In this document: one piece after another, positions 671 through 63,706 of the stretch
Layout: every line of letters starts with the position of its first letter
How positions within the stretch are numbered: position 1 is the stretch's first letter
From: Verrucomicrobiota bacterium
Lineage (GTDB): Bacteria > Verrucomicrobiota > Verrucomicrobiia > Limisphaerales > UBA11358
Reading direction: 5' to 3'
Length of the DNA stretch: 64,000 nt
Assembly (NCBI GenBank): GCA_049521735.1
Contig: JBEKON010000001.1
Location: 98,604-162,603 of the forward strand
Translations under genes and position numbers: made by a program
Notes under the pieces: model-generated
The model's database searches: none
What the model saw: the letters and a program-made list of their open reading frames with translations, nothing else
Told to the model about the DNA's origin: nothing

Positions 671-3600
671 TTGCGCGAAAAATGCGGTGTGCAGGTGCGA
701 TTTCTCCTCGGCCCCGCCGGCAGCGGCAAGACGTTCCTTTGCCTGAAGGAAATCCGTGATGCACTGCGCGAAAATCCTGAAGGACCGCCGCTGATTTTGC
801 TGGCGCCCAAACAGACCACGTTTCAACTCGAACGCCAGTTGCTCACCGGCCATTCGCTTGACGGTTACACGCGACTCCACATTTTTTCATTCGAGCGGCT
901 GGCACGATTTGTTTTTGAAAAATCAAACATCGTGCCGCCTGAACCATTGAGTGACGAAGGCCGTGTGATGGTGTTGCGCGCGCTGTTGATGCGGCACGAA
1001 CATAAACTGAAACTTTTTCGCGGGAGCGCGCGCCGCCCCGGCTTCGCGCAGGAACTCGGCGGATTGTTCAATGAATTCCGGCAGCATCAATTGACGCCGC
1101 TCAAACTCCGCGCCCTTGCCCAACGCCCGGGCTTGCGTCCCGAACTTGGGGACAAGCTGCAAGACCTCGCGCTGCTGGACGACGCTTACGCGAAATGGCT
1201 CTCCGAACACGAATTGCAGGACGCGGATTGTTTGCTGGATACGGCGACCGAAGCGCTGCGCTCCGAACTTAAAACTCAAAACTCAAAACTTAAAATTCAA
1301 GGTTTGTGGTTGGACGGTTTTGCCGAAATGACGCCGCAGGAACTCGGTTTGCTCGCCACCATTCTGCCGTTTTGTGAACGCGCAACGCTCGCGTTCTGCC
1401 TCGACGAATCCCGCGCGCGGAAAGCCGAAAGTTCATGGCTCTCACTTTGGTCAGCCGTTGGCAAAACCTATCAACAATGCCGGTCGCGAATTGAAAATCT
1501 GCCCGATTGCACAATCAGCGTTGAAACACTTAAGCGTGTCCCGGACCAAAACCGCTTTACGGGCAGTCCCGCTTTGCAATTTTTGGAGGCAAACTGGTCG
1601 CAACCAACTCAAAACTTAAAACTTAAAATTCAAAACTCAATCCGGCTCGTTGCCTGTCCAAATCCCGAAGTCGAGGCCGTTCTGGCCGCGCGCGAAATTT
1701 TGGAATTCGTCCGCCGCGGCAATCGCTTTCGCGACTGCGCCGTGCTTGTTCGCAGTCTTGACGCCTATCACAAGCCGCTGGAGCGCGCATTTTGCCGTTA
1801 CGGCATCCCGTTTTTCCTGGACCAGCGCAAATCCGTTTCACATCACCCCCTCGGCGAACTGACCCGCAGTGTGGTCCGCACCGTTGCATTTGACTGGCGG
1901 CAGGAGGATTGGTTCGCCGCGCTGAAAGCCGGGTTTTCGCCGGTGGATGAGGCGGAGATTGACCGGTTGGAAAACGAGGCGCTGGCGCGCGGCTGGCGTG
2001 GCGCGAAATGGCGCGAACCCATTCAAATCGCCGACGATCCACAATTGGAAAAATCACTCGAACGGTTGCGCAAAAAAATCCTGCCACCGTTTGAAAATTT
2101 CGCCAAACAGCTTGTGCGGTTGAAAAATGAACCCACCGGCGGGCAATTGGCCGATGCGTTGCGCGAACTTTGGGGCGAACTCGATGTGGAGAAAACCTTG
2201 GAGCGTTGGAGCCTTGTCGAAACGGAACAATCCGCAATCCATTCGACCGTTTGGGATCAAATGAACTTGTGGCTGGAAAATCTGGCGCTTGCATTTCCAC
2301 GCGAGCCATTGCCGCTGCGCGACTGGCTGCCAATTTTGGAGGCGGGACTTTCGAACCTGACCGTTGGGGTGATTCCGCCCGTGCTCGACGAAGTGCTCGT
2401 CGGCGCGATTGACCGCGCGCGCAACCCCGATTTGAAACTGGCGCTCGTGCTCGGCGTGAATGAATCCGTTTTTCCCGCCGCGCCCGCCGCCCCGACGATT
2501 TTGACCGACGCCGACCGCGATGAATTGAATCCTGCGGTTGCGCTTGGCCCGGATTTGCGCGAGCGGCTGGCGCGCGAGCGTTATTATGGCTACATCACCT
2601 GCACCCGCGCGCGGGAAAAACTCGTTGTGACCTTTGCCCGCCTCGACGCCGATGGCAAAACACTGAACCCGTCGTCGCTCGTCGCACATCTGCGACAGAT
2701 GTTCCCTGAACTTGAAATTGAGGAATTCCACACGGACACCGATTTGGGCGAGGTGGAACATGTGAGTGAAATCGCGCCGATGCTGATGGGAGTTCAGGTA
2801 GGGCGGGCTGTCCCCAGCCCGCCGGAGCGGCGCGATGAGGACATCGCGCCCTACCAACAAAATTGGGCGAGGTTGCTGAAAATTCCAGTGCTCGCAACGC
2901 TGCTCGAAAATTTGCGCCAGTTGCGCGAACCGGATTCGGCGGAATGTTTGTCTCCCGCGCTCGCGGAAAAAATTTACGGCGAGACACTGCAAACGTCGGT
3001 CAGCCGGCTCGAGGAATTTGCCCAGTGCCCGTTTCGATTTTTCGTTCATTCCGGCTTGCGCGCCGAGGAGCGAAAAGTTTTCGAGCTGGATGCGCGCGAA
3101 CGCGGCAGTTTTCAGCACGAAGTTTTGAAAAAATTCCACGACGATTTGACGAAAGAGGGCAAACACTGGCGCGACATTGCGCCGTCGGAAGCGCGCGAAC
3201 GCGTTGGTAAAATTGCCGCCGGACTTGCGCAAGATTATCGCGACGGTTTGTTGCGCGCGGATGACCAAAGCCGGTTTGCCGCGCGCATGCTGACGGAGTC
3301 GCTGCAGGATTTTGTCGAGGTGCTCGTCGCGTGGATGCGCGGGCAGTACCAGTTTGATCCGGCGGTGGCTGAACTCGAATTTGGTTTCAACGTCGGCGGT
3401 GCGCCCGCGTGGGAAATCAATCTCGACGACCGGCACAAGCTCGCGTTGCGCGGACGGATTGACCGGGTTGATTTGTGCCGCGAAACCGGCGACAGCGCGT
3501 TATGCGTGGTGATGGATTACAAGTCCGGCGGCAAGAAGCTCGACGCGATTTTGGTCGAGCACGGCGTGCAATTGCAATTGCTCGCGTATTTGAACGCGCT

Positions 3601-4102: not shown

Positions 4103-4788
4103 CGCTTCGCGGCAAATCCGATCCGGATTGGTCCTCGCTTGTCGAAGAATGGAAGGCCATGCAGTTGCAGTTACGTGAGCGAATGATTGTCACGCCGCTC
4201 GAACCGCTGCCGGGATTTGTCGCCGGGGCGGATTGTGCGTTTTCCGCCGACAAACAAACCATCTTCGCCGCCGCCGTGGTTTATGACCGTGAAACGCAGC
4301 GCATCATCGAAACCGCCCATGCGGTGCGGCCCGCTGAATTTCCCTACATTCCGACTTTTTTAAGCTTTCGCGAAGGGCCGGCGGTTTTGCAGGCAATCCG
4401 TTCGTTGAAGCATGAATTTGGTGCGATTCTTTTCGACGGTCATGGTTTTGCGCATCCGCGTCGCTGCGGCATCGCATCGCATCTGGCGATTGAATTGGAC
4501 AAGCCCGGCGTTGGCGTCGGCAAAAGCCGGTTGATCGGAACGTTTGGAAAACTTTCGCCAAAGGCGGGGGCAACTGTGCCGCTTATGGACGACAACAAAC
4601 AAATCGGCGTTGTGTTACGGACGCAGAAAGGTATTCGTCCAGTTTTTGTGAGCGTCGGCCATCACGTGGATTTGGCATCCGCTGTCAAACTCGTGTTGGC
4701 CTGTTGCACGTGCTATCGCATTCCAGAACCGACGCGGCAGGCGGACATCGAAGTGGCGAAGTTGAAACGGACGAGCGGTGAGATTTAA
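4099..4788 (+). CDS. nfi: Endonuclease V
   Basis: [48 protein letters not shown] motifs; ATG 4099 overlaps the addB stop (ATGA). The ORF-track start at 4045 is probably too early. Confidence 0.85.
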
Positions 4789-6575
4789 TGATACTCCTGC
4801 AACGTCTTGACGCTGTAGCCGGATTTTTTGAGTGCGGCGATGCCGAGGGCGGCGGCTTTCGCGCCGCTTAGCGTCGTCATGATGGGCGTGCCGGTGTAAA
4901 TCGCTGTCGTGCGGATTTTGACTTCGTCTTCTCGCGGCACCGCGCCGCTCGGCGTGTTGATGACGAGCTGGATTTCCTTGTTCTTGAGCAAATCAATCAC
5001 ATTTGGACGGCCTTCGAGCAATTTAACGATGCGCTCGACTTTCAAGCCCGCCTTTTCCAGCACACCGGCCGTGCCGACTGTCGCCACAAACTCGAATTCC
5101 AAATCGGCAAATTGTTTCGCCACCGCCGCAACATGTTTTTTGTGCGCGTCACTCACGCTGATGAAAACTTTTCCGCTCAACGGCAGCGACGCGCCCGCCG
5201 CTATTTGCGATTTGGCGTAGGCGATGCCCAGGTCGGCATCCAGACCCATGACTTCGCCGGTCGAGCGCATTTCCGGCGAGAGCAAAATATCCTGCCCATG
5301 AAAACGGTTGAACGGGAAAACGGATTCCTTCACCGCCCAATACTTCGGTTTGATTTCCTTGGTGAAACCGAGTTCTTTCAAGGTTTTTCCGGCCATGACT
5401 CTCGCCGCGAGCTTGGCCAGCGGCACGCCAATGGCCTTGCTCACAAACGGCACGGTGCGCGACGCACGCGGGTTCACTTCGAGCACGAAAACCTTTTCGT
5501 CCTTCACGGCGTATTGGACGTTCATCAAGCCGATCACTTCCAATTCGCGCGCCATCGCGTGAGTGTAATCGCGAATTGTCTCGATGACTTTTTTGGAAAG
5601 TGTGTGCGGCGGCAAAACCATCGCTGCATCGCCGGAATGAATACCGGCGAATTCGATGTGCTCCAATATTCCTCCGATGACAATTGTGCCGTCGCCCGGT
5701 TTTTTGGAATGGCCGACGTCGGCGATGCAATCCACGTCCACTTCGGTCGCATCTTCCAAAAACCGGTCCACGAGCACCGGACGTTCGGGCGATGCCTCGA
5801 CCGCGAAACGCATGTAATGCTGCAATTCGGCGTCGGAATAGACAATTTGCATCGCGCGACCGCCGAGCACGAAACTTGGCCGGACCAAAATCGGGTAGCC
5901 AAGCTTTTGGGCGACTTCGAGCGCCTCCGTTTCGTTCGTGGCAACACCGTTGGGCGGCTGCGGAATTTTCAGTTTGTCGAGCATCGCGGCGAAGAATTTG
6001 CGGTCTTCGGCGATTTCGATGTTCTGTGGTGAAGTGCCGATGATGTTGACGCCATTTTTCTGGAGGCCGAGCGCAAGGTTCAGCGGGGTTTGCCCGCCGA
6101 ATTGCGCGATGGCGCCCCAGCATTGCTCGCGTTCGTAAATGTGCAGCACGTCTTCGAGCGTGAGCGGTTCGAAGAAAAGCTGGTCGCTTGTGTCGTAATC
6201 GGTCGAAACGGTTTCGGGATTCGAGTTGACCATGATGGTTTCGAAACCGTCCTCCTTGAGTGCGAACGCGGCGTGCACGCAGCAGTAATCAAACTCAATT
6301 CCCTGCCCGATGCGGTTCGGTCCGCCGCCGAGAATCATCACTTTTTTCTTCGGCGTCCTTTTGATTTCGTCATCGCCGCGATCATAAGTCGAATAATAAT
6401 AAGGCGTGTAAGCCTCAAACTCGGCGGCGCAGGTGTCCACGAGTCGATAGCTGGGCACAAGGCCGAGTTTTTTCCGTAGCGCGCGGACTTCGTCCTCAGT
6501 TTGGCCGGTTAAATGGGCGATTTGCCGGTCGGAAAATCCCAAACCTTTCGCTTTGCTCAAAGTGTCATGTGTCAT
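4785..6575 (-). CDS. carB: Carbamoyl-phosphate synthase large subunit, C-terminal half only (split carB)
   Basis: 596 aa. From memory it aligns with E. coli CarB from about residue 470 onward: [57 protein letters not shown], second ATP-grasp, MGS-like tail. No N-terminal half in this window. Confidence 0.85.
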
Positions 6576-6590
6576 GTGCCATGTGCCACG
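6562..6590. repeat. Left arm of long hairpin (GTGTCAT/GTGCCAT heptamers x4) enclosing the four-helix-bundle gene
   Basis: gtgtcatgtgtcatgtgccatgtgccacg. Hand pairing with 6978-7006 gives 22 Watson-Crick + 3 G-T of 29 positions. Contains the carB-C start codon and the four-helix-bundle ORF stop. Confidence 0.8.
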
Positions 6591-6967
6591 TTTGCGCTTT
6601 GGGCGCGCCGTGTCAGGGAACGTTTGAAACCGCCGATGAGGGCTTTGGTTTTGGCTGCTTGTGTATGATGTTCCCGAAACACAGGTTCATTAATATAGCC
6701 ATTGTCGAGCGCCACATAAAGCAGAGACTGAACTTCAACAGCTGAACGTCTGGCGATTCCTAAAAAACGGGCGAATTCGACCTTTGATTCACAATCGAAA
6801 CCTTCGGCAATGTTGGCCATGGTTGAAACCGCTGCGCGTTGAATTTGATCCTTCAATCCAAAATCCCGCGCCAAACCACCATCACCAGTCAAATGATAAA
6901 CACCACGCGTCAATTTCCGCGCTTCCTGCCATGCTTGAATATCTTCAAATTTGCTGATTAAAGGCAT
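6572..6967 (-). CDS. Four-helix-bundle protein (23S rRNA intervening-sequence protein family)
   Basis: [19 protein letters not shown]...[18 protein letters not shown]...[23 protein letters not shown] matches my memory of this family; start taken at the internal ATG 6967. Confidence 0.8.
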
Positions 6968-6977
6968 GGTGATAAAA

Positions 6978-7007
6978 CCTGATACGTGACACTTGATACA
7001 TGACACG
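6978..7007. repeat. Right arm of the hairpin enclosing the four-helix-bundle gene
   Basis: cctgatacgtgacacttgatacatgacacg, imperfect reverse complement of 6562-6590. Confidence 0.8.
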
Positions 7008-8426: not shown

Positions 8427-8511
8427 GCGCATATGGTGGAATTGGCAGACACGCTACTTTGAGGTGGTAGTGGGGCAACCCGTGCAGGTTCAAGTCCTGC
8501 TATGCGCACCA
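8427..8511 (+). tRNA. tRNA-Leu (anticodon GAG), CCA encoded
   Basis: Hand fold: acceptor GCGCATA/TATGCGC, anticodon stem CTACT/GGTAG with loop TTGAGGT, long variable arm, T-arm GCAGG-TTCAAGT-CCTGC. Layout parallels E. coli tRNA-Leu. Confidence 0.9.
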
Positions 8512-9618: not shown

Positions 9619-9626
9619 CAGGTGTA

Positions 9627-9655
9627 GTTTCAAGTTTCAGGTTTCAAGTTTCAAG
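9627..9655. repeat. Intergenic heptamer array (GTTTCAA/GTTTCAG x4)
   Basis: gtttcaagtttcaggtttcaagtttcaag between the ribE start and the ribD stop. Confidence 0.9.
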
Positions 9656-9693: not shown

Positions 9694-10896
9694 TTAATCA
9701 ACACGTGCCGTCAGCAACAAATCCGGTCCGAGCCGCCTCCACTCGACGTTGCGAAGCCGGAGCGCCTCCGCCAGACTTTTCGCGCCGCCACCCGCGACCG
9801 CTTTGCGTGAGTCGCGTCCGCCCAGAATTTTTGGCGCGTAAAAAAACGCGATGCGATGTGCAAAACCGCCGAGCAGAAACGATGCGTTCACTTCGCCGCC
9901 GCCTTCGACCAGCAGGCTGGTAATATTTTGTGAGCCGAGTTTTTGCAACAGCCAACGCAGGTCAATTTGTTGGTAGGGCACGGTCTCCGCACCGTGCCGC
10001 GGCGCGCTGGGGACAGCGCGCCCTACCTTGATTATGGGCGCGACAAGAACATTCACGCGCCCGGCCAAAGCCGCGACGCGACTTTTCGGCGCGGATTTGC
10101 TCACGACAATCGTCGTCAGCGCCGCAAATTTGTCAGTTACAACTTTTGCCTTCAACGGTGTTCGTGCCATCGAATCCAAAATAATCCGGCGGAGCCGCAA
10201 ATTTTTGTTCTGACTTCTGACTCCTGACTTCTGCCTTCTGAATGTCAGGCTTGGGTTGTCCGCTAGAATCGTGTTGATGCCGACGAGAATCGCGTCGTTG
10301 CCTTGACGCAATTTCATGCCGTGCGCCCGAGCCTGCTTGCCGGTAATCCATTTCGACTCGCCACTCGCCGTGGCGATTTTCCCATCGAGCGTCATTGCCG
10401 CCTTCACGGTCACGAACGGCGTGCGGTGAACAATCCAATGGTTGAATGGTTCATTAAGCCGCTCACATTCATCGGCGAGTCTGGTAGGGACGGCTCGCCG
10501 AGCCGTCCGGTCATCACGGCGCAATAACCCTACCTCTGTTACTGCAATCCCGGCACGTTTCAAAATCCTGAAAGCACGACCGGCATGTTTCGGATTTGGA
10601 TCCGTCGCGCCGACAACCACGCGTTTGATTCCCGCCGCGATGATGGCGTCCGTGCAAGGTGGCGTGCGGCTGTGTGAGCTGCACGGTTCGAGCGTCACGT
10701 AAAGCGTTGCGCCGCGCGGCGAGTGCCCGCGTTTCTGCGCATCGCGGAGCGCTTCGATTTCCGCGTGCGGCAGACCCGCACGCCGGTGCCAGCCGCGCCC
10801 GATGATTTTTCCGCCTTTCGCCAATACCGCGCCGACCATCGGATTGGGCGAAGTCATGCCGTAGCCGCGTTGCGCCAAACTCAAAGCCAGGCGCAT
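9694..10896 (-). CDS. ribD: Bifunctional riboflavin biosynthesis deaminase/reductase RibD, carrying three in-frame repeat insertions
   Basis: MRLALSLAQRGYGMTSPNPMVGAVL, HAEIEAL, LEPC..H..TPPC deaminase motifs plus reductase domain. Start moved to ATG 10896 to clear the ftsY stop. Confidence 0.9.
   Translation of the reverse strand: MRLALSLAQRGYGMTSPNPMVGAVLAKGGKIIGRGWHRRAGLPHAEIEALRDAQKRGHSPRGATLYVTLEPCSSHSRTPPCTDAIIAAGIKRVVVGATDPNPKHAGRAFRILKRAGIAVTEVGLLRRDDRTARRAVPTRLADECERLNEPFNHWIVHRTPFVTVKAAMTLDGKIATASGESKWITGKQARAHGMKLRQGNDAILVGINTILADNPSLTFRRQKSGVRSQNKNLRLRRIILDSMARTPLKAKVVTDKFAALTTIVVSKSAPKSRVAALAGRVNVLVAPIIKVGRAVPSAPRHGAETVPYQQIDLRWLLQKLGSQNITSLLVEGGGEVNASFLLGGFAHRIAFFYAPKILGGRDSRKAVAGGGAKSLAEALRLRNVEWRRLGPDLLLTARVD
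9972..10027 (-). repeat. Type-1 GTAGG...CCTAC double-hairpin element, in frame inside ribD
   Basis: Gene-strand reading ggtagg-gcgcgctg tcccc agcgcgc-...-ggcacggtg cggag accgtgcc-ctacc = VGRAVPSAPRHGAETVPYQ. Confidence 0.9.
10210..10249 (-). repeat. Heptamer array (CTGACTT/CTGACTC/CTGCCTT x5) in frame inside ribD
   Basis: ctgacttctgactcctgacttctgccttctgaatgtcagg; encodes RRQKSGVRSQNKN on the gene strand. Confidence 0.9.
10483..10534 (-). repeat. GTAGG...CCTAC palindromic element (variant) in frame inside ribD
   Basis: ggtagggacggctcgccgagccgtccggtcatcacggcgcaataaccctacc; gene strand reads VGLLRRDDRTARRAVPT. Confidence 0.85.
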
Positions 10897-13236: not shown

Positions 13237-13417
13237 AAACTTAAGTTTAACAGTATGACCTGTCCAAAGTCCATCCGCCTTCGCAAGGCTACGGCGAGAT
13301 TAAAAGTCTAAAGCTCGCCTCGGCGGAGCCTTCAGCGAAGCCTGGGTCCAAAGTCAAACAATGCGACGCAACTTTGGACATTGGACATCGAACATTGGAC
13401 TTGTTAAAACTTCGCGC

Positions 13418-13801: not shown

Positions 13802-13813
13802 GCGCCGTTGCAA

Positions 13814-13845
13814 CTTAAAACTCAAAATTCATAATTCAAAATTAA
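13814..13845 (+). repeat. Intergenic AAAACTC-type heptamer array, same family as 1268 and 1606
   Basis: cttaaaactcaaaattcataattcaaaattaa. Confidence 0.85.
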
Positions 13846-16257: not shown

Positions 16258-16716
16258 ATGGCCGACATCATGACCAATCACAAAGCCCGGCGCGATTATC
16301 ACATCCTCGAAACGTTCGAAGCGGGCATCGTGTTGCGCGGCACGGAGGTCAAATCGCTGCGCGCGGGCAAGGGGCAGATCGCCGACGCCTTTGCGCGCGT
16401 GGAAAAGGACGAGGTCTGGCTTTACAACGCGCACATTGACGAATACTCGCACGGCAATCTCCAGAACCATCAGCCCAAGGCCCCGCGCAAATTGCTCCTG
16501 CACAAATCGGAAATCCAGAAGCTGTTTGGTCTGGCAGCGGTAAAAGGCCACGCGCTCGTGCCGCTGGCGTTTTACTGGAAGAACGGGAAGGTGAAGGTCG
16601 CGCTCGCCGTCGGCAAAGGCAAACAGCAATTCGACAAGCGCGAAGATTTAAAACGGCGCGAGTCGGAACGCGAACTCAAGCGCGCCCAGATGCACCGGTT
16701 TAAGGGAGGAAAATAA
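16258..16716 (+). CDS. smpB: SsrA-binding protein SmpB
   Basis: NHKARRDYHILETFEAGIVLRGTEVKSLR...; start at ATG 16258. Confidence 0.9.
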   Translation: MADIMTNHKARRDYHILETFEAGIVLRGTEVKSLRAGKGQIADAFARVEKDEVWLYNAHIDEYSHGNLQNHQPKAPRKLLLHKSEIQKLFGLAAVKGHALVPLAFYWKNGKVKVALAVGKGKQQFDKREDLKRRESERELKRAQMHRFKGGK

Positions 16717-16717
16717 A

Positions 16718-16798
16718 ACCGCAGAGGCGCGGAGATGCAGAGAAGATACGAAAAATTTGATTGGTAATTTTTACTCTGCGCCTTTGCGTCTCCGCGGT
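16718..16798. repeat. Long hairpin with period-8 arms (GCGCGGAG/ATGCAGAG vs CTCTGCGC/CTTTGCGT/CTCCGCGG); probable bidirectional terminator
   Basis: accgcagaggcgcggagatgcagagaag ... ttactctgcgcctttgcgtctccgcggt between convergent smpB and rpmB. Confidence 0.8.
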
Positions 16799-16802
16799 GA
16801 AA

Positions 16803-20072: not shown

Positions 20073-20164
20073 AGTGTCACGTATCACGTATCATGTGTCA
20101 CGCAGCCGAATGCCAAATACCCGACGGACGACACTTGGCACATGACACACGACACCTGACACTT
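20073..20164. repeat. 'Empty' heptamer-arm hairpin of the same family as 6562/6978
   Basis: agtgtcacgtatcacgtatcatgtgtcacg - 27-nt loop - gacacttggcacatgacacacgacacctgacact. Arms share gtgtcacgtatca and tggcacatgacac strings with the carB-adjacent cassette. Confidence 0.85.
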
Positions 20165-20176
20165 TAGCTTTTCCCC

Positions 20177-22233: not shown

Positions 22234-22239
22234 ATCGCG

Positions 22240-22710
22240 ATGAAGCTCACGAAAAGTTCACGGCATTCGAAGATCACGGGTGACTTCGGTGAATTGATCG
22301 TGCTGTATCTACTTTCCCGCCACGGCTTCGAATGCGCCCGGGTTGATCACACGGGAATTGATTTGATAGCGCGGCGGCCAAATTCCCGCGAAGTTCTTGG
22401 AATTTCGGTCAAGAGTCGCAGCCGTCAAGCTGGAACTGAAAACACACATCTCGCATTACCACATGATGGATTTGTTAAAGCCAAGGCCGCGTGTGATGCG
22501 TTTGGTTGCACACCTTACTTCGCGCTTGTAATAGATGCCGGTCAGCGAATACGGGTCTTCTTGCTGTCACTTCGTCATCTTCAAAGGCTTTTTCCAGGCG
22601 GGCGCAAGGTGTCCGCGTGGCAGATGTCCGAATCCTTCTTACGGCAGTATTACGCTGATCCGCAAATCGCCATCTTTGAACTTACCACACACGGAGAGAA
22701 GTGGTTTTAG
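22240..22710 (+). CDS. Small PD-(D/E)XK-like nuclease-fold protein (DUF4365/Hjc-like pattern), function unknown
   Basis: GDFGELIVLYLLSRHGFECARVDHTGIDLIARR...LGISVKSRS fits the G-E ... D-h-h-A ... (E/S)-x-K layout of restriction-endonuclease-like folds. Starts 6 nt after the argG stop. Confidence 0.5.
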   Translation: MKLTKSSRHSKITGDFGELIVLYLLSRHGFECARVDHTGIDLIARRPNSREVLGISVKSRSRQAGTENTHLALPHDGFVKAKAACDAFGCTPYFALVIDAGQRIRVFLLSLRHLQRLFPGGRKVSAWQMSESFLRQYYADPQIAIFELTTHGEKWF

Positions 22711-22729
22711 CGCATTTTTAGGGTAGCCT

Positions 22730-23410: not shown

Positions 23411-23430
23411 CTTCATACTGTGAGGAGCAG

Positions 23431-34052: not shown

Positions 34053-34129
34053 AACAACCAAGAAACAAAGGAACAAAGTTTTAGGGGAATGGATTTGTTC
34101 CACCGTCGTTGCCTGGTTTCTTTGTTGTT
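34053..34129. repeat. Imperfect hairpin with A-rich/T-rich short-period arms
   Basis: aacaaccaagaaacaaaggaacaaag ... tttgttccaccgtcgttgcctggtttctttgttgtt, between the sulfatase start and the ampG-like stop. Confidence 0.7.
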
Positions 34130-37891: not shown

Positions 37892-39949
37892 ATGCGTCCA
37901 CAAATCCAAGACAATCCGCTGGCTGCACCCGTAACGACATTGTGGGGTGTCGGCGCGGAACGCGCGGCGCAACTCGCACGCCTCGACATTCACACCATCG
38001 AGGATTTGTTGCTGCACCGGCCGCGGCGTTATGAAGATCGCCGTCATTTTCGCAGTATTGCCGGGTTGACCCGTGACGAAGCGGCGACCACGCGCGGCAC
38101 GATTGTCACGCTCGGCCTCAGACGTTTTCGCGGCGGCAACAAATCCGTTTTTGAAATCATTCTCGATGATGGCAGCGCCCGGTTGCATTGCCGCTGGTGG
38201 AATCTGCCGTTCATGCAAAATTATTTTGCGGTTGGCGACGAGATTTTCGTTTACGGCAAGCTCAATGAAACCAAGCCGCGCATCATTGACCATCCTGAAA
38301 CCGAAGTCATCGAGGGCGGCGAGGAGAGCTTCATCCACATCAACCGCATCGCGCCGGTGTATCCGCTCACCGAAGGCCTGCCGCAACGCTGGTTGCGCGG
38401 GCTGATCTGGCGGACGTTGGAAAAATTCGAGCGGCACATCGCCGAACCGTGGCCGGGAAATGTAGGACAGGTGTCCCGCCTGTCTCCATCTTCAAGTTCT
38501 AAAAATCAGGGACAGGCTGGAAGCCTGTCCTACCCGACGCGCGCCAACGCCATTCACATGACGCATTTCCCCGAAGAGCTGGCCGATGTGGAAATCGCAC
38601 GGCGACGGCTGGCGTTGGATGAATTCATTGCGTTGCAGCGTGACATGCAGCTTCGCCGGAAAAATTTCGAGGCCAAATCGCGCGCATTACCGTGCGGTGG
38701 TGACAATCGTTTGATGAAGCCGTTTCTGGCACGGCTCGGCTTCAAGCTCACCGACGCCCAGACGAAAGTCCTCCGCGAAATCCGGGCGGACATGAGCGGG
38801 GCGCATCCGATGCGGCGGCTGCTGCAAGGCGACGTCGGTTCAGGCAAGACGGTGGTTGCCGCCTGCGCGGCGCTCATGGCTTTGGAAAGCGGGTTCAATG
38901 TTGCGCTCATGGCGCCGACGGAAATCCTTGCGGAACAACATTTCAACAATTTTTCGCGCTGGTTTGGACCGCTCGGCGTGAAGGTGAAATTGCAAACAGG
39001 TTCACACAGGAGTAAGGAACAAGAAGTAAGGCGCAAGACCCTCGCAGCAAAACCCTTACTCCTTACTCCTTGCTCCTTGACCATCGGCACTCACGCCCTC
39101 ATCGAGTCGGGATTTGTATTGGAGAAATTGGGTTTGGTCATTATTGACGAGCAGCACAAGTTTGGCGTGGCACAGCGCGAACAGATCGTGCGTAAAGGCC
39201 GCTATCCGCATTTGCTCGTGATGACGGCTACCCCGATTCCGCGCACGCTCGGCCTTACGCTTTACGGCGACCTTGATATTTCGGTAATTGACCAGATGCC
39301 CGGTGGACGCGGCAGGATAAAAACTTTTCTACGCACGACCGAAAAATTGCCTGAAGTTTGGAAATTCATCCGCGAAAAACTGGCTGCCGGACGGCAGGCA
39401 TACGTCGTTTATCCGCGCGTGGAGGATTCAGGACCAAATGGGTTGAAAGCGGTGAAAAAGGAATTTGAAAATTTGAAGAAGCTGCTCGCGCCATTCCATG
39501 TCGGGTTGATGCACGGCCGGTTGAAAGGGCGGGAGAAGGACGAAGTAATGACAGCGTTTCGCGCGAACCAAATTCAGGCGCTCGTCGCGACGACGCTGGT
39601 TGAAGTGGGTTTGGATGTGCCGAACGCAACGATCATGCTGGTTGAAAATGCGGAGCGGTTCGGTCTGGCGCAATTGCATCAATTACGCGGGCGCATCGGG
39701 CGCGGCGCGCATGAGTCGCACTGCATTTTGATTTCCGACGCGAAGAATGAGGATGCAGGGCGGCGCTTGAAAGTTTTGGAAGAGACGACGGACGGGTTTC
39801 GCATTGCCGAGGTGGATTTGAAATTGCGCGGGCCGGGCGAATTGCTCGGCCAGCGGCAAAGCGGCCTGCCGAAATTCCGCTTCGGCAATCTGGCCGGGGA
39901 TTTGGATTTGATCCGGTTTGCGCGCGAGTTGGCGGCGCAAATAATTTAG
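37892..39949 (+). CDS. recG: ATP-dependent DNA helicase RecG, carrying two in-frame repeat segments
   Basis: LLLHRPRRYEDR wedge-domain start, GDVGSGKTVVA, DEQHKFGV, MTATPIPRTL, HGRLK..EK, QLHQLRGRIGRG. Confidence 0.9.
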   Translation: MRPQIQDNPLAAPVTTLWGVGAERAAQLARLDIHTIEDLLLHRPRRYEDRRHFRSIAGLTRDEAATTRGTIVTLGLRRFRGGNKSVFEIILDDGSARLHCRWWNLPFMQNYFAVGDEIFVYGKLNETKPRIIDHPETEVIEGGEESFIHINRIAPVYPLTEGLPQRWLRGLIWRTLEKFERHIAEPWPGNVGQVSRLSPSSSSKNQGQAGSLSYPTRANAIHMTHFPEELADVEIARRRLALDEFIALQRDMQLRRKNFEAKSRALPCGGDNRLMKPFLARLGFKLTDAQTKVLREIRADMSGAHPMRRLLQGDVGSGKTVVAACAALMALESGFNVALMAPTEILAEQHFNNFSRWFGPLGVKVKLQTGSHRSKEQEVRRKTLAAKPLLLTPCSLTIGTHALIESGFVLEKLGLVIIDEQHKFGVAQREQIVRKGRYPHLLVMTATPIPRTLGLTLYGDLDISVIDQMPGGRGRIKTFLRTTEKLPEVWKFIREKLAAGRQAYVVYPRVEDSGPNGLKAVKKEFENLKKLLAPFHVGLMHGRLKGREKDEVMTAFRANQIQALVATTLVEVGLDVPNATIMLVENAERFGLAQLHQLRGRIGRGAHESHCILISDAKNEDAGRRLKVLEETTDGFRIAEVDLKLRGPGELLGQRQSGLPKFRFGNLAGDLDLIRFARELAAQII
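38462..38533 (+). repeat. Type-2 GTAGGACAGG...CCTGTCCTAC element (72 nt) in frame inside recG
   Basis: gtaggacaggtgtcccgcctgtctccatct...cagggacaggctggaagcctgtcctac = VGQVSRLSPSSSSKNQGQAGSLSY. Confidence 0.9.
39009..39076 (+). repeat. Heptamer-arm hairpin (GTAAGGA/ACAAGAA vs CCTTACT x2) in frame inside recG
   Basis: ggagtaaggaacaagaagtaaggcgcaag - loop - cccttactccttactccttgctcc; encodes RSKEQEVRRKTLAAKPLLLTPCS. Confidence 0.85.
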
Positions 39950-47752: not shown

Positions 47753-47765
47753 GTGAAATTGGTTT

Positions 47766-47826
47766 ATCCTTCTTGTTCTCGTCCTCGTCCTCATTTTTCG
47801 ATTACGAGGACGACGACGAGGACGAT
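47766..47826. repeat. Hairpin with period-6 arms (CTCGTC/CTCGTC vs GAGGAC/GACGAC)
   Basis: atccttcttgttctcgtcctcgtcctc - atttttcgattac - gaggacgacgacgaggacgat. Hand pairing gives a ~20-bp stem with 1 mismatch and 2 G-T. Covers the prmC 3' end and the murA leader. Confidence 0.85.
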
Positions 47827-48722
47827 TTGGCAATTAAAAATCTTTCGTGCTGACTGTAATCCTCCCTCACCGCTTCGACAATCCACTTTTCGTTTCCAAA
47901 AATTTTCCGAACTGCTTGAGCCTGGCCGTCTCCGAATTCAAGCATGATTTTCCCGTCCGATTTCAAAAATGCCGCTGCGTGCGCCGCAATCAAACGGTAA
48001 AAATCCAGGCCGTCCGTGCCACCGTCGAGCGCAACGCGCGGGTCAAAATCGCGGACTTCAGGTTGAAGTGTGGCAATTTCGGCGGATGGAATGTAAGGCG
48101 GATTACTAATGATGAGGTTGAAGCGCGCGTCGCCGGACAATGCGGCAAAACCGTCACTTTGTTGAAATTGGATTCGCTCGATGACATTGTGCCGGACGGC
48201 GTTTTGTCCGGCCAATGCGAGTGCATCCACCGAGGTGTCTGTCGCGACGATTTTTGCGTTCGGACATTTTACGGCCAGTGCGATGGCGATGCACCCGCTG
48301 CCGGTGCCGAAATCCAGAGCAGTTGGGACATCAACTTGGGAGGGACGGCGTGTCGCCGTCCCTAAATTTGGGTCGGCAGGATGCCGACCTTCCCCTGTTA
48401 AAAATTTCCACCCGAGTTCGGCGAGCAATTCGGTTTCCGGTCGTGGCGCGAGCGCGTGGGGGTTCACAGCGATCTCAAGTCCGCAGAATGAAGTTGAGCC
48501 GACAATGTGCTGAAGTGGTTCGTGTTGGCCACGGCGTTTGACCATCTCGCGCAACGCGTCCACTTCTGTCGGCGTAAGCGTGCGCTCGAAGTTTAGATAC
48601 AATTTCATGCGCGGCAGCTTGAGCAGATGTGCGAGCAGGAGTTCGGTTTGCAGGCGCGGCGATTCGACGCCTTTTTTGGCCATAAAATCCGCGCTCTTCT
48701 GAATCGCTTCAAGAACTGTCAC
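47802..48722 (-). CDS. prmC: Release-factor glutamine N5-methyltransferase PrmC/HemK, with in-frame repeat insertion and hairpin-derived poly-Ser tail
   Basis: LDFGTGSGCIAIALA, IISNPPYIP; C-terminus ...LIAKSSSSSSS. Confidence 0.85.
   Translation of the reverse strand: MTVLEAIQKSADFMAKKGVESPRLQTELLLAHLLKLPRMKLYLNFERTLTPTEVDALREMVKRRGQHEPLQHIVGSTSFCGLEIAVNPHALAPRPETELLAELGWKFLTGEGRHPADPNLGTATRRPSQVDVPTALDFGTGSGCIAIALAVKCPNAKIVATDTSVDALALAGQNAVRHNVIERIQFQQSDGFAALSGDARFNLIISNPPYIPSAEIATLQPEVRDFDPRVALDGGTDGLDFYRLIAAHAAAFLKSDGKIMLEFGDGQAQAVRKIFGNEKWIVEAVREDYSQHERFLIAKSSSSSSS
48338..48395 (-). repeat. Double-hairpin palindromic element (type 4) in frame inside prmC
   Basis: gggagggacggcgtgtcgccgtccc-taaatttg-ggtcggcaggatgccgacc-ttcccc; gene strand encodes GEGRHPADPNLGTATRRPSQ. 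Confidence 0.85.
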
Positions 48723-49354: not shown

Positions 49355-49424
49355 CCACAAAGACACGAAGAGAAAATTTTCTTTGCGTCTTTGTGCCTTT
49401 GCGTTGAACTTTGCCTCTTCGTGG
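49355..49424. repeat. Complex imperfect palindrome with period-8 arms (CTTTGCGT/CTTTGTGC)
   Basis: ccacaaagacacgaagagaaaattttctttgcgtctttgtgcctttgcgttgaactttgcctcttcgtgg; shares the cctttgcgt string with 16781 and 28005. Confidence 0.75.
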
Positions 49425-50488: not shown

Positions 50489-50510
50489 TGTGCATTCGTG
50501 TGCATTCGTG
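50489..50510 (+). repeat. Decamer tandem duplication
   Basis: tgtgcattcg tgtgcattcg tg, upstream of fabG. Confidence 0.8.
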
Positions 50511-53701: not shown

Positions 53702-53717
53702 GGTTCGAATTATTTAA

Positions 53718-53848
53718 CCACAGATGAACACAGATAAACACGGATGGAAATAAAAGAATTGAACGGTCATAAGACAAGACCAGACAACAAAATTTTTCCT
53801 GTGCAGCACTCCGCTTTTTTATCCGTGTTAATCCGTGTCCATCCGTGG
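53718..53848. repeat. Hairpin with period-10 arms (CCACAGATGA/ACACAGATAA vs ATCCGTGTTA/ATCCGTGTCC) and a 75-nt loop
   Basis: Hand pairing of 53718-53745 with 53821-53848 gives 24/28 Watson-Crick. Three of the four mismatches are A-C on the + strand, which are G-U on the - strand. Confidence 0.85.
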
Positions 53849-53908
53849 TTCGATTTGTATTTCCCCAGCTATTTTGACTTTACTCCCGGAATTGCCTAGC
53901 CTGCCCGC

Positions 53909-61684: not shown

Positions 61685-63706
61685 TCAATCATTTTTCGCC
61701 GGCGCGTTGATGGACTGAAATGATTCCCGCCATGGTTGGTGGTTTCTGTAAAGTTGCAGTCGCCGTCGCATATCTGCAACGCTTTGGCTCATGCCTTTAG
61801 CGGCTGCGAGTTCGACAGCTTTTTGGGTCACTTCCTGAGCGTCATCGAAATGGCCGGCTTCCGCGCAGGCCATGCCTAGCGCGTCGAGCACGAACGGCAG
61901 TGTGCTATCGCTCAAAACGTTCGCTTTGACTGCGAACACCAGCGCGGTCTTCCCGTCGCGAATTTGAGGATTTTCATCGGCGGCCAGCACCTGGGCGGTG
62001 TAGGCGAGGATTTGAAAATTGTCCGGGTCAATCCGCAATGCTTCGCGCAGCCGGCCAACCGCCTCGGCATCACGGCCCTGTTTGAGCAGCGCCTTGCCCA
62101 TTTGAAAATACGGCCAGGGATAGGCCGGATCGAGCCGCGCGGCGTTGGTAAATTCATTCATGGCCTCGTCGAAACGCCCAAGTTCGACCAGCACGATGCC
62201 AAGCCCGTCGTGCAAGGCCGGCGGCTTCGGATCCAGCCGCACAGCTTCGCGGTATTCGGACAGCGCCTCCCCCGGTCGGCCAAGGTTGTCGAGCAGATTG
62301 CCGAGATTGTTGTGAATCTGGTAACGCCCCGGCATGAGGCGCGCCGCTTCACGATATTCCGCCAGCGCCCGGGTCAATTTGCCCTGTTGTTCGAGCGCGA
62401 CGCCGAGGTTGAAGTGAGCGATGCCGTTGTCTTTCGTCACGGCGAGCGCGTGTGTGAACAGCGATTCGCTATCGTGCCAAAAGCGCAATTGATTTTCGGT
62501 GAGAATCACACACGCTGTGAGAATTGCGGCGGCCGCGAACGTGATGACAATTTTCGGAATTTGAAATCGGTCTGCCAAATCACGGACGCCGAAGGCAACG
62601 GCCAGGAACACGCCGATGGAGGGAATGTAGGTGTAACGGTCGGCCAGCGCCGCGCCGCCGACCTGGATCAGGCCGATGACCGGCACCAGCGTCCCCAAAA
62701 ACCAAAGCCAGCCGACGAGCAGATACGGACGCGTGCGTCGTGTCTTCCAAACACAGCAGGAAACCACAATTAAAAATACGGTCGCCGCGAAGAATTGTGT
62801 CCGAAGCAAGGGTGTGATCGGATACAGGACCACCAGGTTTGCCGGCCAAAGCATTTTCAGAAAATAGTCCAGGTAGGATGTCACGGCGTTGGCGAGCCGA
62901 TAACGCAAAGGAACCAGTTCCAGTGGGATAATGGCGCCACCACCATGCTGTGCGAAAACGGTTACGATGCAGGAAACCGCGGCAAGCAGAAAAAACGGCC
63001 ACTTTTCCAAAGCGAGAAGGATGAAGGATGAAGAATGAAAGTTGAAAGCCGGAATTGGCGGCGCCGCGCTGTTTTCGGGATTTGAAATTGGAAATTGGGA
63101 ATTGGAAATTCGCCGGAGCGGCCAGAAATCGAGCAACAACATCACGAATGGCAGCGTGACAAGCATGGGTTTCGCCATGAGGCCGAGCGCGAAGAAAATC
63201 AAGGCGAACCAAAAGCTGCGGCGGCAGTTTTCCTTTGCGTATTTCGTGTAGCTTAAAAGCGCGAGCAGGGCGAAGAACGTACTCAGGACGTCCTTGCGTT
63301 CCGAAATCCACGCAACAGATTCGACGTGCAGCGGATGCCACGTGAACAACGCGGCAACGCATGCGCTAGGCCACAATGCATTCGTCAGTCGGAACAGCAG
63401 CACCAAAAGCAAAACCGCATTGGCTACGTGAAACAGAACGTTGACGGAATGATGTGCGCCAGCATTGAGGCCGAAAAGTTCGCAGTCCGTCATATGGGAG
63501 AGCCAAGTGACGGGATGCCAGTTACTGGCATGTTGCGTGGTGTAAGCCCATTTGATTCCCGTCCACGTCAAACCTTTTTGGACGACATGATTTTTCGTAA
63601 CGTAATCGTCGTCGTCATAGACCAGGAAGCCGTAATGGCATACGGGCAGATAAACCAGCAGCGTGATAAGTGCGAGCAACAGGCCAATGAGGCGCGGGCG
63701 GGACAT
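61685..63706 (-). CDS. Membrane protein with PMT/ArnT-like N-terminal multi-TM domain and C-terminal TPR repeats; carries an in-frame repeat insertion
   Basis: N-terminus YDDDDYV..N, about 10 TM segments, then TPR units (AEYREAARLMPG..., EYREAVRLDP...). Confidence 0.7.
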   Translation of the reverse strand: MSRPRLIGLLLALITLLVYLPVCHYGFLVYDDDDYVTKNHVVQKGLTWTGIKWAYTTQHASNWHPVTWLSHMTDCELFGLNAGAHHSVNVLFHVANAVLLLVLLFRLTNALWPSACVAALFTWHPLHVESVAWISERKDVLSTFFALLALLSYTKYAKENCRRSFWFALIFFALGLMAKPMLVTLPFVMLLLDFWPLRRISNSQFPISNPENSAAPPIPAFNFHSSSFILLALEKWPFFLLAAVSCIVTVFAQHGGGAIIPLELVPLRYRLANAVTSYLDYFLKMLWPANLVVLYPITPLLRTQFFAATVFLIVVSCCVWKTRRTRPYLLVGWLWFLGTLVPVIGLIQVGGAALADRYTYIPSIGVFLAVAFGVRDLADRFQIPKIVITFAAAAILTACVILTENQLRFWHDSESLFTHALAVTKDNGIAHFNLGVALEQQGKLTRALAEYREAARLMPGRYQIHNNLGNLLDNLGRPGEALSEYREAVRLDPKPPALHDGLGIVLVELGRFDEAMNEFTNAARLDPAYPWPYFQMGKALLKQGRDAEAVGRLREALRIDPDNFQILAYTAQVLAADENPQIRDGKTALVFAVKANVLSDSTLPFVLDALGMACAEAGHFDDAQEVTQKAVELAAAKGMSQSVADMRRRLQLYRNHQPWRESFQSINAPAKND
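63018..63112 (-). repeat. Two adjacent heptamer arrays flanking a GC palindrome, in frame in the PMT/TPR gene
   Basis: aaggatgaaggatgaagaatgaaagttgaaag ... ggcggcgccgc ... ggatttgaaattggaaattgggaattggaaattcg; encodes ISNSQFPISNPENSAAPPIPAFNFHSSSFIL. Confidence 0.85.

What the first reader, a model, noticed from the sequence alone, without database searches (positions are those of the whole stretch)
1268..63112. Window-wide class of short-period tandem arrays and hairpins: conserved architecture, variable unit sequence
At least 14 loci share one design: 3-5 tandem units of 6-10 nt (mostly 7), often paired with an inverted partner array to form a 20-30 bp stem. The unit sequence differs between loci. 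Examples are AAAACTC (1268, 1606, 13814), GTTTCAA (9627), CTGACTT (10210), GTGTCAT/GTGCCAT (6562/6978, 20073/20130), GTAAGGA/CCTTACT (39009/39053), AAGAAAC (34053/34094), CTCGTC (47766/47806), GCGCGGAG/CTTTGCGT (16718/16771, 49355), ATCCGTGTTA (53718/53821), TGTGCATTCG (50489) and GGATGAA plus TTGGAAA (63018/63078). A single mobile sequence would not produce this pattern. It suggests a generating or selecting mechanism that acts on periodicity and structure. I do not know a described element class that matches.
Basis: seen in the sequence. Interest (0 to 1): 0.65.

Follow-up and report, generated by a model that had tools for sequence, protein, structure and literature searches.

The report
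Heptamer arrays tied to four-helix-bundle cassettes
The window is dotted with ~30-base blocks made of about four copies of a 7-base unit, a verrucomicrobial version of the long-known but unexplained bacterial "heptamer repeats". The same blocks form the inverted arms around a small four-helix-bundle (S23p/PF05635) gene here and in at least two, possibly three, other phyla, which gives the old puzzle a specific protein partner to test.

Summary
The window has 12 period-7 arrays of at least 3 copies, against 0.22 expected from shuffles. In 80 related Limisphaerales loci there are 246 such arrays, against 25 or fewer for any other period. Arrays are ~4 x 7 nt with many different units. About half lie in frame inside housekeeping genes (AddB, RibD, RecG, a PMT/TPR protein). 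The rest fill intergenic spacers up to the stop and start codons, often as inverted pairs with 20-31 bp stems.

The class is not undescribed. It matches heptamer SSRs (cyanobacterial STRR, Xanthomonas GGGAATC) and 23S rRNA IVS elements.

The new result concerns PF05635 four-helix-bundle genes. Every one I examined in Limisphaerales, Xanthomonadales and Bacteroidaceae, and about 80% of 70 metagenome loci, is bracketed by inverted heptamer arrays. This includes the window's own gene at 6572-6967. The arm unit travels with the protein subfamily across at least 29 genomic contexts. In Xanthomonas the arms are the genome's own GGGAATC repeat.

Arms show no RNA wobble signature, so they behave as DNA-level inverted repeats. 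Arrays do not vary between strains, but their units turn over at orthologous sites.

Most likely the window's arrays are solo arms, mini-hairpins and one full copy of IVS-like cassettes. How they move or are generated remains inferred.

The parts
1266..1300 (+). Heptamer array AAAACTC/AAAACTT x5, in frame inside AddB (ELKTQNSKLKIQG)
   Evidence: The same unit is kept in orthologues L001, L002, L034 and L037.
1606..1640 (+). Second AAAACTY array, in frame inside AddB (PTQNLKLKIQNS)
   Evidence: At the orthologous site relatives carry AATCCGC arrays or GC-rich palindromes.
6562..6589 (-). 3' arm of the cassette (sense GTGGCACATGGCACATGACACATGACAC). It holds the stop codon of the 4HB gene and ATG codons that can start the carB C-half.
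6572..6967 (-). PF05635 / S23p four-helix-bundle gene (131 aa). It is the cargo in the loop of the cassette.
   Evidence: Pfam E 3.2e-29. PDB 2gsc XCC0516, 5 chains, E 3.3e-11. Gene call in L081. It is the only such gene in the window.
6980..7006 (-). 5' arm of the cassette (sense GTGTCATGTATCAAGTGTCACGTATCA), 12 nt upstream of the 4HB ATG
9626..9655 (.). Solo array GTTTCAA x4.3 in the ribD-ribE spacer. It ends 7 nt before the ribE ATG.
   Evidence: Relatives carry a hairpin of inverted arrays at this site.
10208..10241 (-). Array (sense CAGAAGT x4.9) in frame in a RibD loop (RQKSGVRSQNKN)
13374..13400 (.). Solo array TTGGACA x3.9, 17 nt upstream of the glyoxalase gene
13812..13843 (.). Solo array AAAACTC/AAAATTC x4.3 that fills the glyoxalase-pfkB spacer
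16718..16798 (.). Hairpin of period-8 arms (GCAGAGGC...) between the convergent smpB and rpmB genes. It also fits a terminator on the minus strand.
   Evidence: Replaced by a plain short hairpin in L090.
20073..20165 (.). Gene-less hairpin with GTGTCAC/GTATCAC arms, the same unit as the cassette at 6562-7006. It starts right after the DUF1015 stop codon.
   Evidence: Replaced by a GC-rich palindrome in L090.
34053..34128 (.). Weak hairpin (AAGAAAC-like arms) in the MFS-sulfatase spacer
   Evidence: z -1.45, not significant
39008..39079 (+). Hairpin GTAAGGA / CCTTACT x3.6, in frame inside RecG (SKEQEVRRKTLAAKPLLLTPCSL)
47775..47825 (.). Hairpin with period-6 arms (CTCGTC/GACGAG) between prmC and aroA
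49355..49404 (.). Short period-8 repeat or hairpin in the PBP-fabD spacer. A marginal member of the class.
50489..50510 (.). TGTGCATTCG x2.2 upstream of fabG. Marginal, and not above chance on its own.
53716..53851 (.). Hairpin with period-10 arms (CACAGATGAA / ATCCGTGTTA) between the divergent pyrF and hisD genes
63016..63046 (-). Array GGATGAA x3.4, in frame in a loop of a PMT/TPR membrane protein. The unit is the same as the arms of the L037-type 4HB cassettes.
63080..63110 (-). Array ATTGGAA x4.4 in the same protein loop. It is not the inverted partner of 63016.

Best explanation
The arrays are the repeat module of IVS-like cassettes. The complete form is a PF05635 (S23p, pentameric four-helix-bundle) gene that fills the loop between two inverted arms. 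Each arm is about 3-5 tandem heptamers. The upstream arm abuts the ATG and the downstream arm starts a few bases after the stop codon.

The window holds one complete cassette (6562-7006), one gene-less hairpin with the same GTGTCAY arms (20073-20165), further hairpins, and solo arms.

These modules are DNA-level elements whose arms behave like terminal inverted repeats. They land, or survive, only where they do little harm. In operon spacers the arms can supply stop and start codons. In permissive surface loops of proteins they are read through in frame, because 3 units equal 21 nt or 7 codons.

Once in place they persist for long periods. They are homogenised and remodelled by slippage or gene conversion in 7-nt register, so the unit drifts or is replaced while the architecture stays.

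Shown: the anatomy, the in-frame reading, the turnover, the universal bracket around PF05635 genes, and the link between unit and protein subfamily.

Inferred: that solo arrays and hairpins derive from, or are spread by the same machinery as, the cassettes. Also inferred: that the four-helix-bundle protein recognises its cognate heptamers.
For: (1) Period 7 is uniquely enriched. The window has 12 arrays against 0.22 expected. Relatives have 246 arrays against 25 or fewer for any other period, with copies tightly 3-5.

(2) All 9 PF05635 genes in the window plus the 80 related loci are bracketed by inverted heptamer arrays. Loop sizes of inverted pairs are bimodal, 4-124 nt or 353-693 nt.

(3) The cassette is a discrete insertion.
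- The nusB|PHP junction is an ATGA overlap in 17 of the 27 loci where the junction could be located. It carries a 478-534 nt cassette in L017, L023, L026 and L061, and by the flanks also in L018. It carries a 14-nt footprint in L020 and L022.
- The site upstream of the carB C-half is empty in 16 loci and filled in the window, L023 and L045.

(4) The unit travels with the protein subfamily.
- The window-type protein (74-77% identity) has GTGTCAY/GTATCAG arms in two further gene contexts (L091/L092, L093). L094 carries the unit only as a hairpin downstream of the gene.
- The L037-type protein occurs in at least 29 flank contexts with GGATGAA-group arms. 56 of 70 loci have an upstream/downstream inverted match, against 0 of 100 shifted controls. 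Period 7 dominates the flanks, with 26 upstream and 38 downstream cases against 1 each for period 9.

(5) The architecture holds in other phyla.
- Xanthomonas and Dyella, between accB and accC, have GGGAATC arms.
- Bacteroidaceae, between araD and araA and between an aminotransferase gene and a DAHP synthase gene, have TTGACAA arms.
- The Coxiella 23S IVS has 3-4 GACAGAT heptamers just before the S23p ATG (PMC4990558).

(6) GGGAATC is the dispersed Xanthomonas heptamer SSR, with 186 loci that mostly have 4 units and include inverted pairs (PMC4692102).

(7) G-U against A-C mismatches in 61 cassette stems on the sense strand are 68 against 77 (p 0.5). This points to DNA-level rather than RNA-level complementarity.

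(8) In-frame reading is shown by the RibD alignment, including exact 21-nt contractions in L019 and L029, and by AddB, RecG and the PMT protein.

(9) The arms abut the ATG (median gap 2 nt) and follow the stop codon by a median of 5 nt.
Against: - No transposase, target-site duplication or recent identical copies were seen, so mobility is inferred from presence/absence and multiple contexts only.
- Solo arrays and hairpins outnumber cassettes about 25 to 1. Most window units (AAAACTC, CAGAAGT, CCTTACT) have no known cognate cassette.
- Hairpin loops hold no detectable remnant of a 4HB gene.
- A 500-nt cassette could not have entered essential genes, so in-frame solo arrays need their own way in.
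- In the RibD loop the array occupies a loop of constant length, and neighbouring units differ by single substitutions. This fits in-situ evolution as well as insertion.
- Loops of heptamer hairpins also accept other small palindromes. 4HB genes might therefore home into pre-existing hairpins rather than carry the arms.
- Taxonomic labels of some MAG contigs are unreliable.
Confidence: 0.5

Rival explanations
1. In-situ origin. The replicative polymerase slips preferentially in a 7-nt register (the hypothesis attributed to the 2007 SSR survey cited in PMC4692102). Arrays then arise and are homogenised locally anywhere selection allows. Inverted partners arise by template switching. PF05635 genes, and other small palindromes, merely home into the loops of existing hairpins.
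For: - Arrays are almost as frequent inside long open frames as random positions are (61% against 69%).
- The RibD loop keeps its length while its units differ by single substitutions (AGAAGTC, AGAAGCC, AGAAGGC, AGAGGCC). Contractions are exact multiples of 7.
- A GC-rich palindrome sits in a heptamer hairpin loop in L001.
- No transposase or target-site duplication was found.
Against: - The arm unit is conserved with the protein subfamily across at least 29 unrelated contexts and across phyla.
- Cassettes appear as clean all-or-none insertions, arms included, at junctions that are otherwise a 4-nt gene overlap.
- There is no length variation among strains at 99.6-99.97% identity.
- Identical units recur at unrelated sites 36 times more often than chance.
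- AddB site 2 switches between unrelated units, and to GC palindromes, among close relatives.
- Slippage alone does not explain the sharp preference for 7 over 6, 8 or 9, nor the cap at about 4 copies.
Confidence: 0.25
2. Functional RNA or regulatory sites. [quoted passage not shown] Selection for that function keeps the architecture.
For: - RNase III cuts the Coxiella IVS at the first heptamer (PMC4990558).
- Arrays abut start and stop codons, as reported for TAACTGA repeats (PMC4679880).
- STRR hairpins have been proposed to stabilise transcripts or to couple translation (PMC2670836).
- Arms stay complementary while the units change.
- Stems are 20-31 bp, a size suitable for RNase III.
Against: - There is no excess of G-U over A-C in stems on the sense strand (68 against 77; 50 against 64).
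- Half of the window arrays are solo, unstructured and inside coding sequence.
- The same spacer holds an array hairpin, a plain hairpin or a GC-rich palindrome in a strain with about 90% nucleotide identity.
- There is no Rfam match.
- Terminator-like sites are not enriched, 27 against 26 expected.
Confidence: 0.17
3. Contingency (phase-variation) loci, chance, or assembly artefact.
For: Short tandem repeats classically mediate phase variation. One Bacteroides arm differs by 2 units between samples.
Against: - There are zero indels in the arrays across five near-identical strain contigs.
- Arrays sit in essential housekeeping genes and must stay in frame.
- Enrichment is 55-fold over shuffles.
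- Identical sequences occur in independent JGI, ENA and NCBI assemblies.
Confidence: 0.02

Closest known systems
Cyanobacterial STRR (short tandemly repeated repetitive) heptamers
   Same: 7-nt units in a few tandem copies. Several unit families occur per genome. They are dispersed and often form hairpins in operon spacers, and their function is unknown (PMC2670836; Mazel 1990 and Vioque 1997 from my own knowledge).
   Different: The host here is Verrucomicrobiota. Half of the arrays are in frame inside essential genes. There are many more unit types. The link to PF05635 cassettes shown here has not, to my knowledge, been reported for STRR.
23S rRNA intervening sequences that carry an S23p ORF (Coxiella, Leptospira, Xanthomonas, Brucella)
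   Same: A PF05635 ORF sits in the loop of a long stem. In Coxiella, 3-4 tandem heptamers lie directly upstream of the ATG. These elements are regarded as selfish and possibly mobile (PMC4990558).
   Different: The cassettes here sit between or within protein-coding genes, not in helix 25 or 45 of 23S rRNA. RNase III excision is untested. Gene-less and one-armed derivatives are far more numerous than full copies.
Xanthomonas GGGAATC and Nostoc GGGGAYT heptamer SSRs
   Same: Heptamers that mostly have 4 units, occur as inverted pairs, lie in intergenic positions, and sit at orthologous sites with sequence and length variation (PMC4692102).
   Different: They were interpreted as G-quadruplex elements. 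The units here are not G-rich. I find the GGGAATC arrays to be the arms of the XCC0516-type four-helix-bundle gene between accB and accC, a link that paper does not mention.
TAACTGA direct repeats of Beggiatoaceae, Cyanobacteria and Bacteroidetes
   Same: 2-6 heptamer copies that end within a few bases of start codons. Some overlap or lie within ORFs (PMC4679880).
   Different: They have a single unit, are mostly direct rather than inverted, and no associated gene was identified.
REP/REPIN-RAYT elements, MITEs, Rickettsia palindromic elements
   Same: Short dispersed hairpin elements. Gene-less copies outnumber the gene-bearing form. RPEs are read through in frame inside genes (own knowledge; REPIN: PMC3116915).
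   Different: The arms are tandem heptamers of variable sequence rather than one conserved palindrome. The associated gene is a four-helix bundle with no known nuclease or recombinase fold.

Membership tests
Heptamer SSR / STRR-type repeats | Unit length of 7 nt, in excess over other periods | tested here: met
   12 against 0.22 expected in the window. 246 against 25 or fewer in relatives.
Heptamer SSR / STRR-type repeats | A few tandem copies, several unit families per genome, dispersed | tested here: met
   Median 4.3 copies. 97 units. 9 units in the window.
Heptamer SSR / STRR-type repeats | Inverted pairs that form hairpins in intergenic spacers | tested here: met
   68 of 258 arrays have a partner, against 1.3% of controls. 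Folding z values are -3.3 to -4.4.
Heptamer SSR / STRR-type repeats | Cyanobacterial host (STRR in the strict sense) | tested here: not met
   Relatives are Verrucomicrobiota/Limisphaerales.
IVS-type element with S23p ORF | ORF of family PF05635 (pentameric four-helix bundle) | tested here: met
   Pfam E 3.2e-29. PDB 2gsc E 3.3e-11, 5 chains.
IVS-type element with S23p ORF | ORF enclosed by inverted repeats that can form a long stem | tested here: met
   Window arms at 6562-6589 and 6980-7006. 61 of 77 cassettes have stems with a mean length of 29 nt.
IVS-type element with S23p ORF | Located in helix 25 or 45 of 23S rRNA | tested here: not met
   It lies between a hypothetical gene and the carB C-half. 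There is no rRNA in the window.
IVS-type element with S23p ORF | Excised from the transcript by RNase III | not testable with these tools
   This needs RNA end mapping. The lack of a wobble signature gives no support for RNA-level selection.
TIR transposon / MITE | Terminal inverted repeats | tested here: met
TIR transposon / MITE | Target-site duplication | tested here: inconclusive
   None is evident at the nusB|PHP and carB sites, but only two sites could be compared.
TIR transposon / MITE | Transposase, or near-identical copies within one genome | tested here: not met
   There is no transposase in the cassette. The two cassettes of L023 are 45% identical. The whole genome was not available.
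Phase-variable contingency SSR | Copy number varies among close strains and switches the gene on and off | tested here: not met
   No indels in arrays at 99.6-99.97% identity.
Intrinsic terminators | GC-rich stem followed by a T run | tested here: not met
   27 sites against 26 expected. Only the 16718 hairpin overlaps one.

The most novel reading that the evidence does not exclude
PF05635 four-helix-bundle proteins are the specific partners of bacterial heptamer repeats. Each pentameric ring would recognise an array of about 4-5 cognate heptamers, and gene plus arms would form a self-propagating module. The module's orphan arms and mini-hairpins would be the heptamer SSRs (STRR, GGGAATC, TTGACAA, the arrays of this window) that have been over-represented without explanation in many bacterial genomes. 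Because 7 is not a multiple of 3, three units present any stop or start codon in all three frames. Three units also restore the reading frame. This would let such modules sit in operons and even inside genes.
Probability: 0.3. Interest if true: 0.85.

Novelty: new variant of a known kind. Interest (0 to 1): 0.68.

Why it matters
Heptamer tandem repeats have been known since 1990 in cyanobacteria and were later found over-represented in many bacteria, with no mechanism or partner protein identified. PF05635 / S23p "four helix bundle" genes are very widespread, and a single search here returned thousands of homologues. They are related to the DGR accessory protein Avd and have no known function outside DGRs.

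A consistent physical association between the two, across several phyla and dozens of genomic contexts, makes two old questions testable with one experiment. That experiment asks whether the protein binds, or acts on, its cognate heptamer array.

There is also a practical consequence for annotation. In these genomes, 10-residue low-complexity inserts in housekeeping proteins, odd start codons and split operons are footprints of these modules and not sequencing errors.

Tried and rejected
- RNA-structure selection: G-U against A-C counts in stems are symmetric, so I did not adopt an RNA-motif explanation. There is no Rfam family.
- Special mutational signature: the transition fraction within arrays is 0.57, against 0.70 for the background. 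Nothing stands out.
- Hypermutable SSR: there are no indels among strain-level contigs.
- Terminators: not enriched.
- Remnants of 4HB genes in hairpin loops: none found. The best hit turned out to be a nested GC-rich palindrome.
- Profile search of metagenome contigs with a mixed 4HB alignment failed because there was no conserved stretch. A single protein was used instead.
- Elhai 2008 and Vioque 1997 could not be read. What I say about them rests on memory.
- One search was an empty script.
- I considered repeated 7-bp target-site duplications, telomerase-like synthesis and polymerase-theta-type templated insertions as generators. I found no evidence bearing on them.

Full report

TRF reports the arrays at the coordinates given. 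Counting non-overlapping arrays of at least three copies, the window has 12 with period 7 and at most one for any other period. One hundred dinucleotide-preserving shuffles give a mean of 0.22 period-7 arrays and never more than 2. A separate match/mismatch run scan gives 8 period-7 runs, none for periods 4-6, 8, 9 and 11, and one each for periods 10 and 12.

Folding confirms five hairpins:

| Region | z against shuffles |
|---|---|
| 20068-20172 | -3.5 |
| 16712-16802 | -3.5 |
| 39000-39085 | -3.3 |
| 47760-47832 | -4.4 |
| 53708-53856 | -4.1 |

The pair 34053/34094 is weak (z -1.45). The arrays at 63018 and 63078 are different arrays that do not pair (z -0.1). The period-8 and period-10 items at 49355 and 50489 are marginal. 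The exceptional signal is therefore period 7.

**2. Where the window comes from, and what the gene contexts are**

RibD relatives place the window in Verrucomicrobiota, order Limisphaerales. The window is part of JGI contig Ga0427919_0000051, and its gene calls were recovered from that record.

Six of the twelve period-7 arrays lie inside coding sequences and are read through in frame:
- two in AddB
- one in RibD
- one arm of a full hairpin in RecG
- two in a loop of a PMT/TPR membrane protein

The others fill short spacers and touch the neighbouring stop or start codons.

**3. The phenomenon is clade-wide**

In 80 related loci (1.29 Mb) TRF finds 246 period-7 arrays, against 25 or fewer for any other period. 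The density is the same as in the window, about 1.9 per 10 kb. There are 97 distinct canonical units. Copy number is tightly 3-5, with a median of 4.3 and lengths of 24-33 nt.

Arrays are nearly as likely as random 30-mers to be spanned by an open frame of at least 900 nt (61% against 69%). They are therefore not excluded from genes.

Units are not random. Identical units at sites more than 1.5 kb apart occur about 36 times more often than for random heptamers.

**4. Dynamics**

Contigs of the same strain (99.6-99.97% identity) show no indel in any array. These are not hypermutable loci.

At about 90% nucleotide identity (L090), the two intergenic hairpins at 16718 and 20073 are replaced. One gives way to a plain short hairpin and the other to a GC-rich nested palindrome. 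Both start right after the same stop codons.

In one RibD loop about 60 orthologues carry an array at the same position with at least ten different units. Many of these units are one substitution apart. L019 and L029 have exact 21-nt, three-unit, in-frame contractions.

In AddB one array site keeps its unit across relatives. The other site switches between unrelated units or a GC-rich palindrome.

RibD has three such hot spots. The architecture is thus maintained at a site while the sequence turns over.

**5. The key anatomical finding**

The arrays at 6562-6589 and 6980-7006 are inverted partners that enclose a 131-codon gene of Pfam family PF05635 (23S rRNA intervening sequence protein, or "four helix bundle protein"). 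The evidence is, plus a match to PDB 2gsc XCC0516, deposited with five chains.

All nine PF05635 genes in the window and the 80 loci are bracketed in the same way. Inverted-partner loop sizes are bimodal, 4-124 nt or 353-693 nt.

The cassette is a discrete insertion:
- **nusB|PHP junction.** Seventeen of the 27 loci where the junction could be located have a 4-nt ATGA overlap. L017, L023, L026 and L061 have a 478-534 nt cassette whose first bases supply the nusB stop codon, and L018 shows the same arrangement in its flanks. L020 and L022 have a 14-nt footprint.
- **Upstream of the carB C-half.** Sixteen loci are empty. The window, L023 and L045 are filled, and there the 3' arm replaces the first ~9 codons and offers new ATG/TTG start codons.

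The hairpin at 20073-20165 has the same GTGTCAY unit as the window's cassette but no gene.

**6. Generality**

- **Window-type subfamily.** Proteins 74-77% identical to the window's protein lie in other gene contexts, on contigs labelled Anaerolineales or Chloroflexota and on a further NCBI contig. L091/L092 and L093 carry the same GTGTCAY/GTATCAG arms. L094 has GGTGTCA arrays only as a hairpin downstream of the gene, with no upstream/downstream match. The labels need caution because several MAG contigs are evidently mis-binned.
- **Second subfamily (L037-type).** It was retrieved from 80 metagenome loci. Of the 70 with both flanks, 56 have an upstream/downstream inverted match, against 0 of 100 shifted controls. 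Periodicity in the flanks is almost entirely period 7. The loci fall into at least 29 different flank contexts, yet the arms are almost always of the GGATGAA group. The arms abut the ATG (median 2 nt) and follow the stop codon by a median of 5 nt.
- **Xanthomonadales.** In Xanthomonas and Dyella the XCC0516-type gene sits between accB and accC. It is flanked by GGGAATC units upstream (about 4 in Xanthomonas, fewer and more degenerate in Dyella) and by their complement downstream, ending at the accC ATG.
- **Bacteroidaceae.** Two cassettes, one between araD and araA and one between an aminotransferase gene and a DAHP synthase gene, have TTGACAA/TTGTCAA arms.
- **Literature.** The Coxiella 23S IVS has three tandem GACAGAT heptamers plus a degenerate fourth directly before the S23p ATG, and RNase III cuts at the first repeat (PMC4990558). 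GGGAATC is the dispersed Xanthomonas heptamer SSR, with 186 loci that mostly have four units and include inverted pairs (PMC4692102). Neither that paper nor the TAACTGA paper mentions S23p or four-helix-bundle genes. PF05635 genes have been noted wedged between operon genes such as cmr3 and cmr2 (PMC3936711).

**7. At what level do the arms act?**

In 61 non-identical cassette stems, read on the sense strand of the gene, there are 1476 Watson-Crick pairs, 68 G-U and 77 A-C (p 0.5). The hairpins of the relatives give 50 against 64.

An RNA helix under selection should show G-U in clear excess over A-C, and this one does not. The complementarity is therefore strand-symmetric, as expected for DNA-level inverted repeats or for arms kept alike by conversion.

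Three further checks give no support for other roles:
- Within-array substitutions show no special spectrum.
- Terminator-like sites are not enriched.
- Rfam finds only a tRNA.

**8. Interpretation**

The best-supported reading is that the window's arrays belong to IVS-like modules. There is one full cassette, one cognate gene-less hairpin, other hairpins and solo arms. They survive in spacers and in permissive protein loops. A 7-nt period makes them unusually tolerable, because three units restore the reading frame and three units display any codon in all three frames.

What is shown:
- the anatomy
- the in-frame reading
- the turnover
- the universal bracket around PF05635 genes
- the coupling between arm unit and protein subfamily

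What is inferred:
- that solo arrays share the origin or the machinery of the cassettes
- that the pentameric protein recognises about 4-5 cognate heptamers

Points against this reading:
- Solo forms outnumber cassettes about 25 to 1.
- Most window units have no known cassette.
- No transposase, target-site duplication or recent copy was seen.
- Hairpin loops hold no gene remnants.
- The RibD data fit in-situ concerted evolution equally well.
- Another small palindrome nests in a heptamer hairpin loop, so loops may simply be landing sites.

The main rival is polymerase slippage in 7-nt register with secondary homing of genes into hairpins. It keeps about a quarter of the probability. A primarily RNA-level function keeps about a sixth.

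**9. Comparison with known classes, and verdict**

As a kind, this is the known heptamer-SSR/STRR phenomenon combined with the known S23p-bearing IVS. It fails strict membership of both, because the host is not a cyanobacterium and the element is not in 23S rRNA.

The following are, to my knowledge and within the searched library, not described:
- the verrucomicrobial setting
- the frequent in-frame residence in essential genes
- the many unit families
- above all, the consistent bracket of PF05635 genes by heptamer arrays across phyla

I rate the finding a new variant of a known kind, with interest 0.68.

Noticed in passing
window 20715/20716: The window lacks 111 nt (37 codons, in frame) of the cation-efflux (CDF) gene. 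The segment is present in all four public contigs of the same strain that span the site and are otherwise 99.7-100% identical.
   Followed up: partly
window 2796-2856, 9975-10030, 37828-37889: Three copies of a GC-rich ~60-nt nested palindrome. Two are read in frame inside AddB and RibD (peptide GRAVPSAPRHGAETVPYQQ type). In relatives the same protein hot spots hold either such a palindrome or a heptamer array.
   Followed up: partly
L001 7549-7663: A GC-rich palindrome (peptide VGRASSRAGSSVASPHQ) is nested in the loop of an AGTCCAA heptamer hairpin. Relatives L017 and L028 have a 14-16 nt loop at this hairpin.
   Followed up: no
window 4785-6560 (-): carB is split. Only the C-terminal half (oligomerisation remnant, second ATP-grasp domain, MGS domain) is encoded here. 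In this genome its original first ~9 codons are replaced by the cassette arm.
   Followed up: partly
L090 6542-8401 against window 22233-28025: A strain with about 90% nucleotide identity has different genes (ORF6N and a hypothetical gene) in place of the polysaccharide-lyase / GH28 cluster between argG and rtcB.
   Followed up: no
L003, L009, L019, L025, L037, L046, L048, L053 and others: Contigs labelled Anaerolineae, Bifidobacteriaceae, Akkermansia, Sulfotelmatobacter, Methylomirabilota and similar carry RibD genes 64-79% identical to this verrucomicrobial one. Those checked (L037, L045) also share neighbouring genes such as AddB. They are probably mis-binned MAG contigs.
   Followed up: no
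L037 7631-7786: The 3' arm of a 4HB cassette is expanded to a 22-copy, 156-nt heptamer array. This is the only long array among the 246.
   Followed up: no
L181 against L183, upstream of position 1501: The upstream region of a Bacteroides 4HB cassette differs by about three heptamer units (21 nt) between samples. Arrays can therefore vary in copy number in that lineage, unlike in the Limisphaerales strains.
   Followed up: no
L013 14000-14752: Inverted heptamer arrays (31 of 32 Watson-Crick pairs) bracket a thioredoxin-like gene rather than a PF05635 gene.
   Followed up: partly
window 8427-8508 (+): A tRNA gene, the only Rfam match in the window.
   Followed up: no
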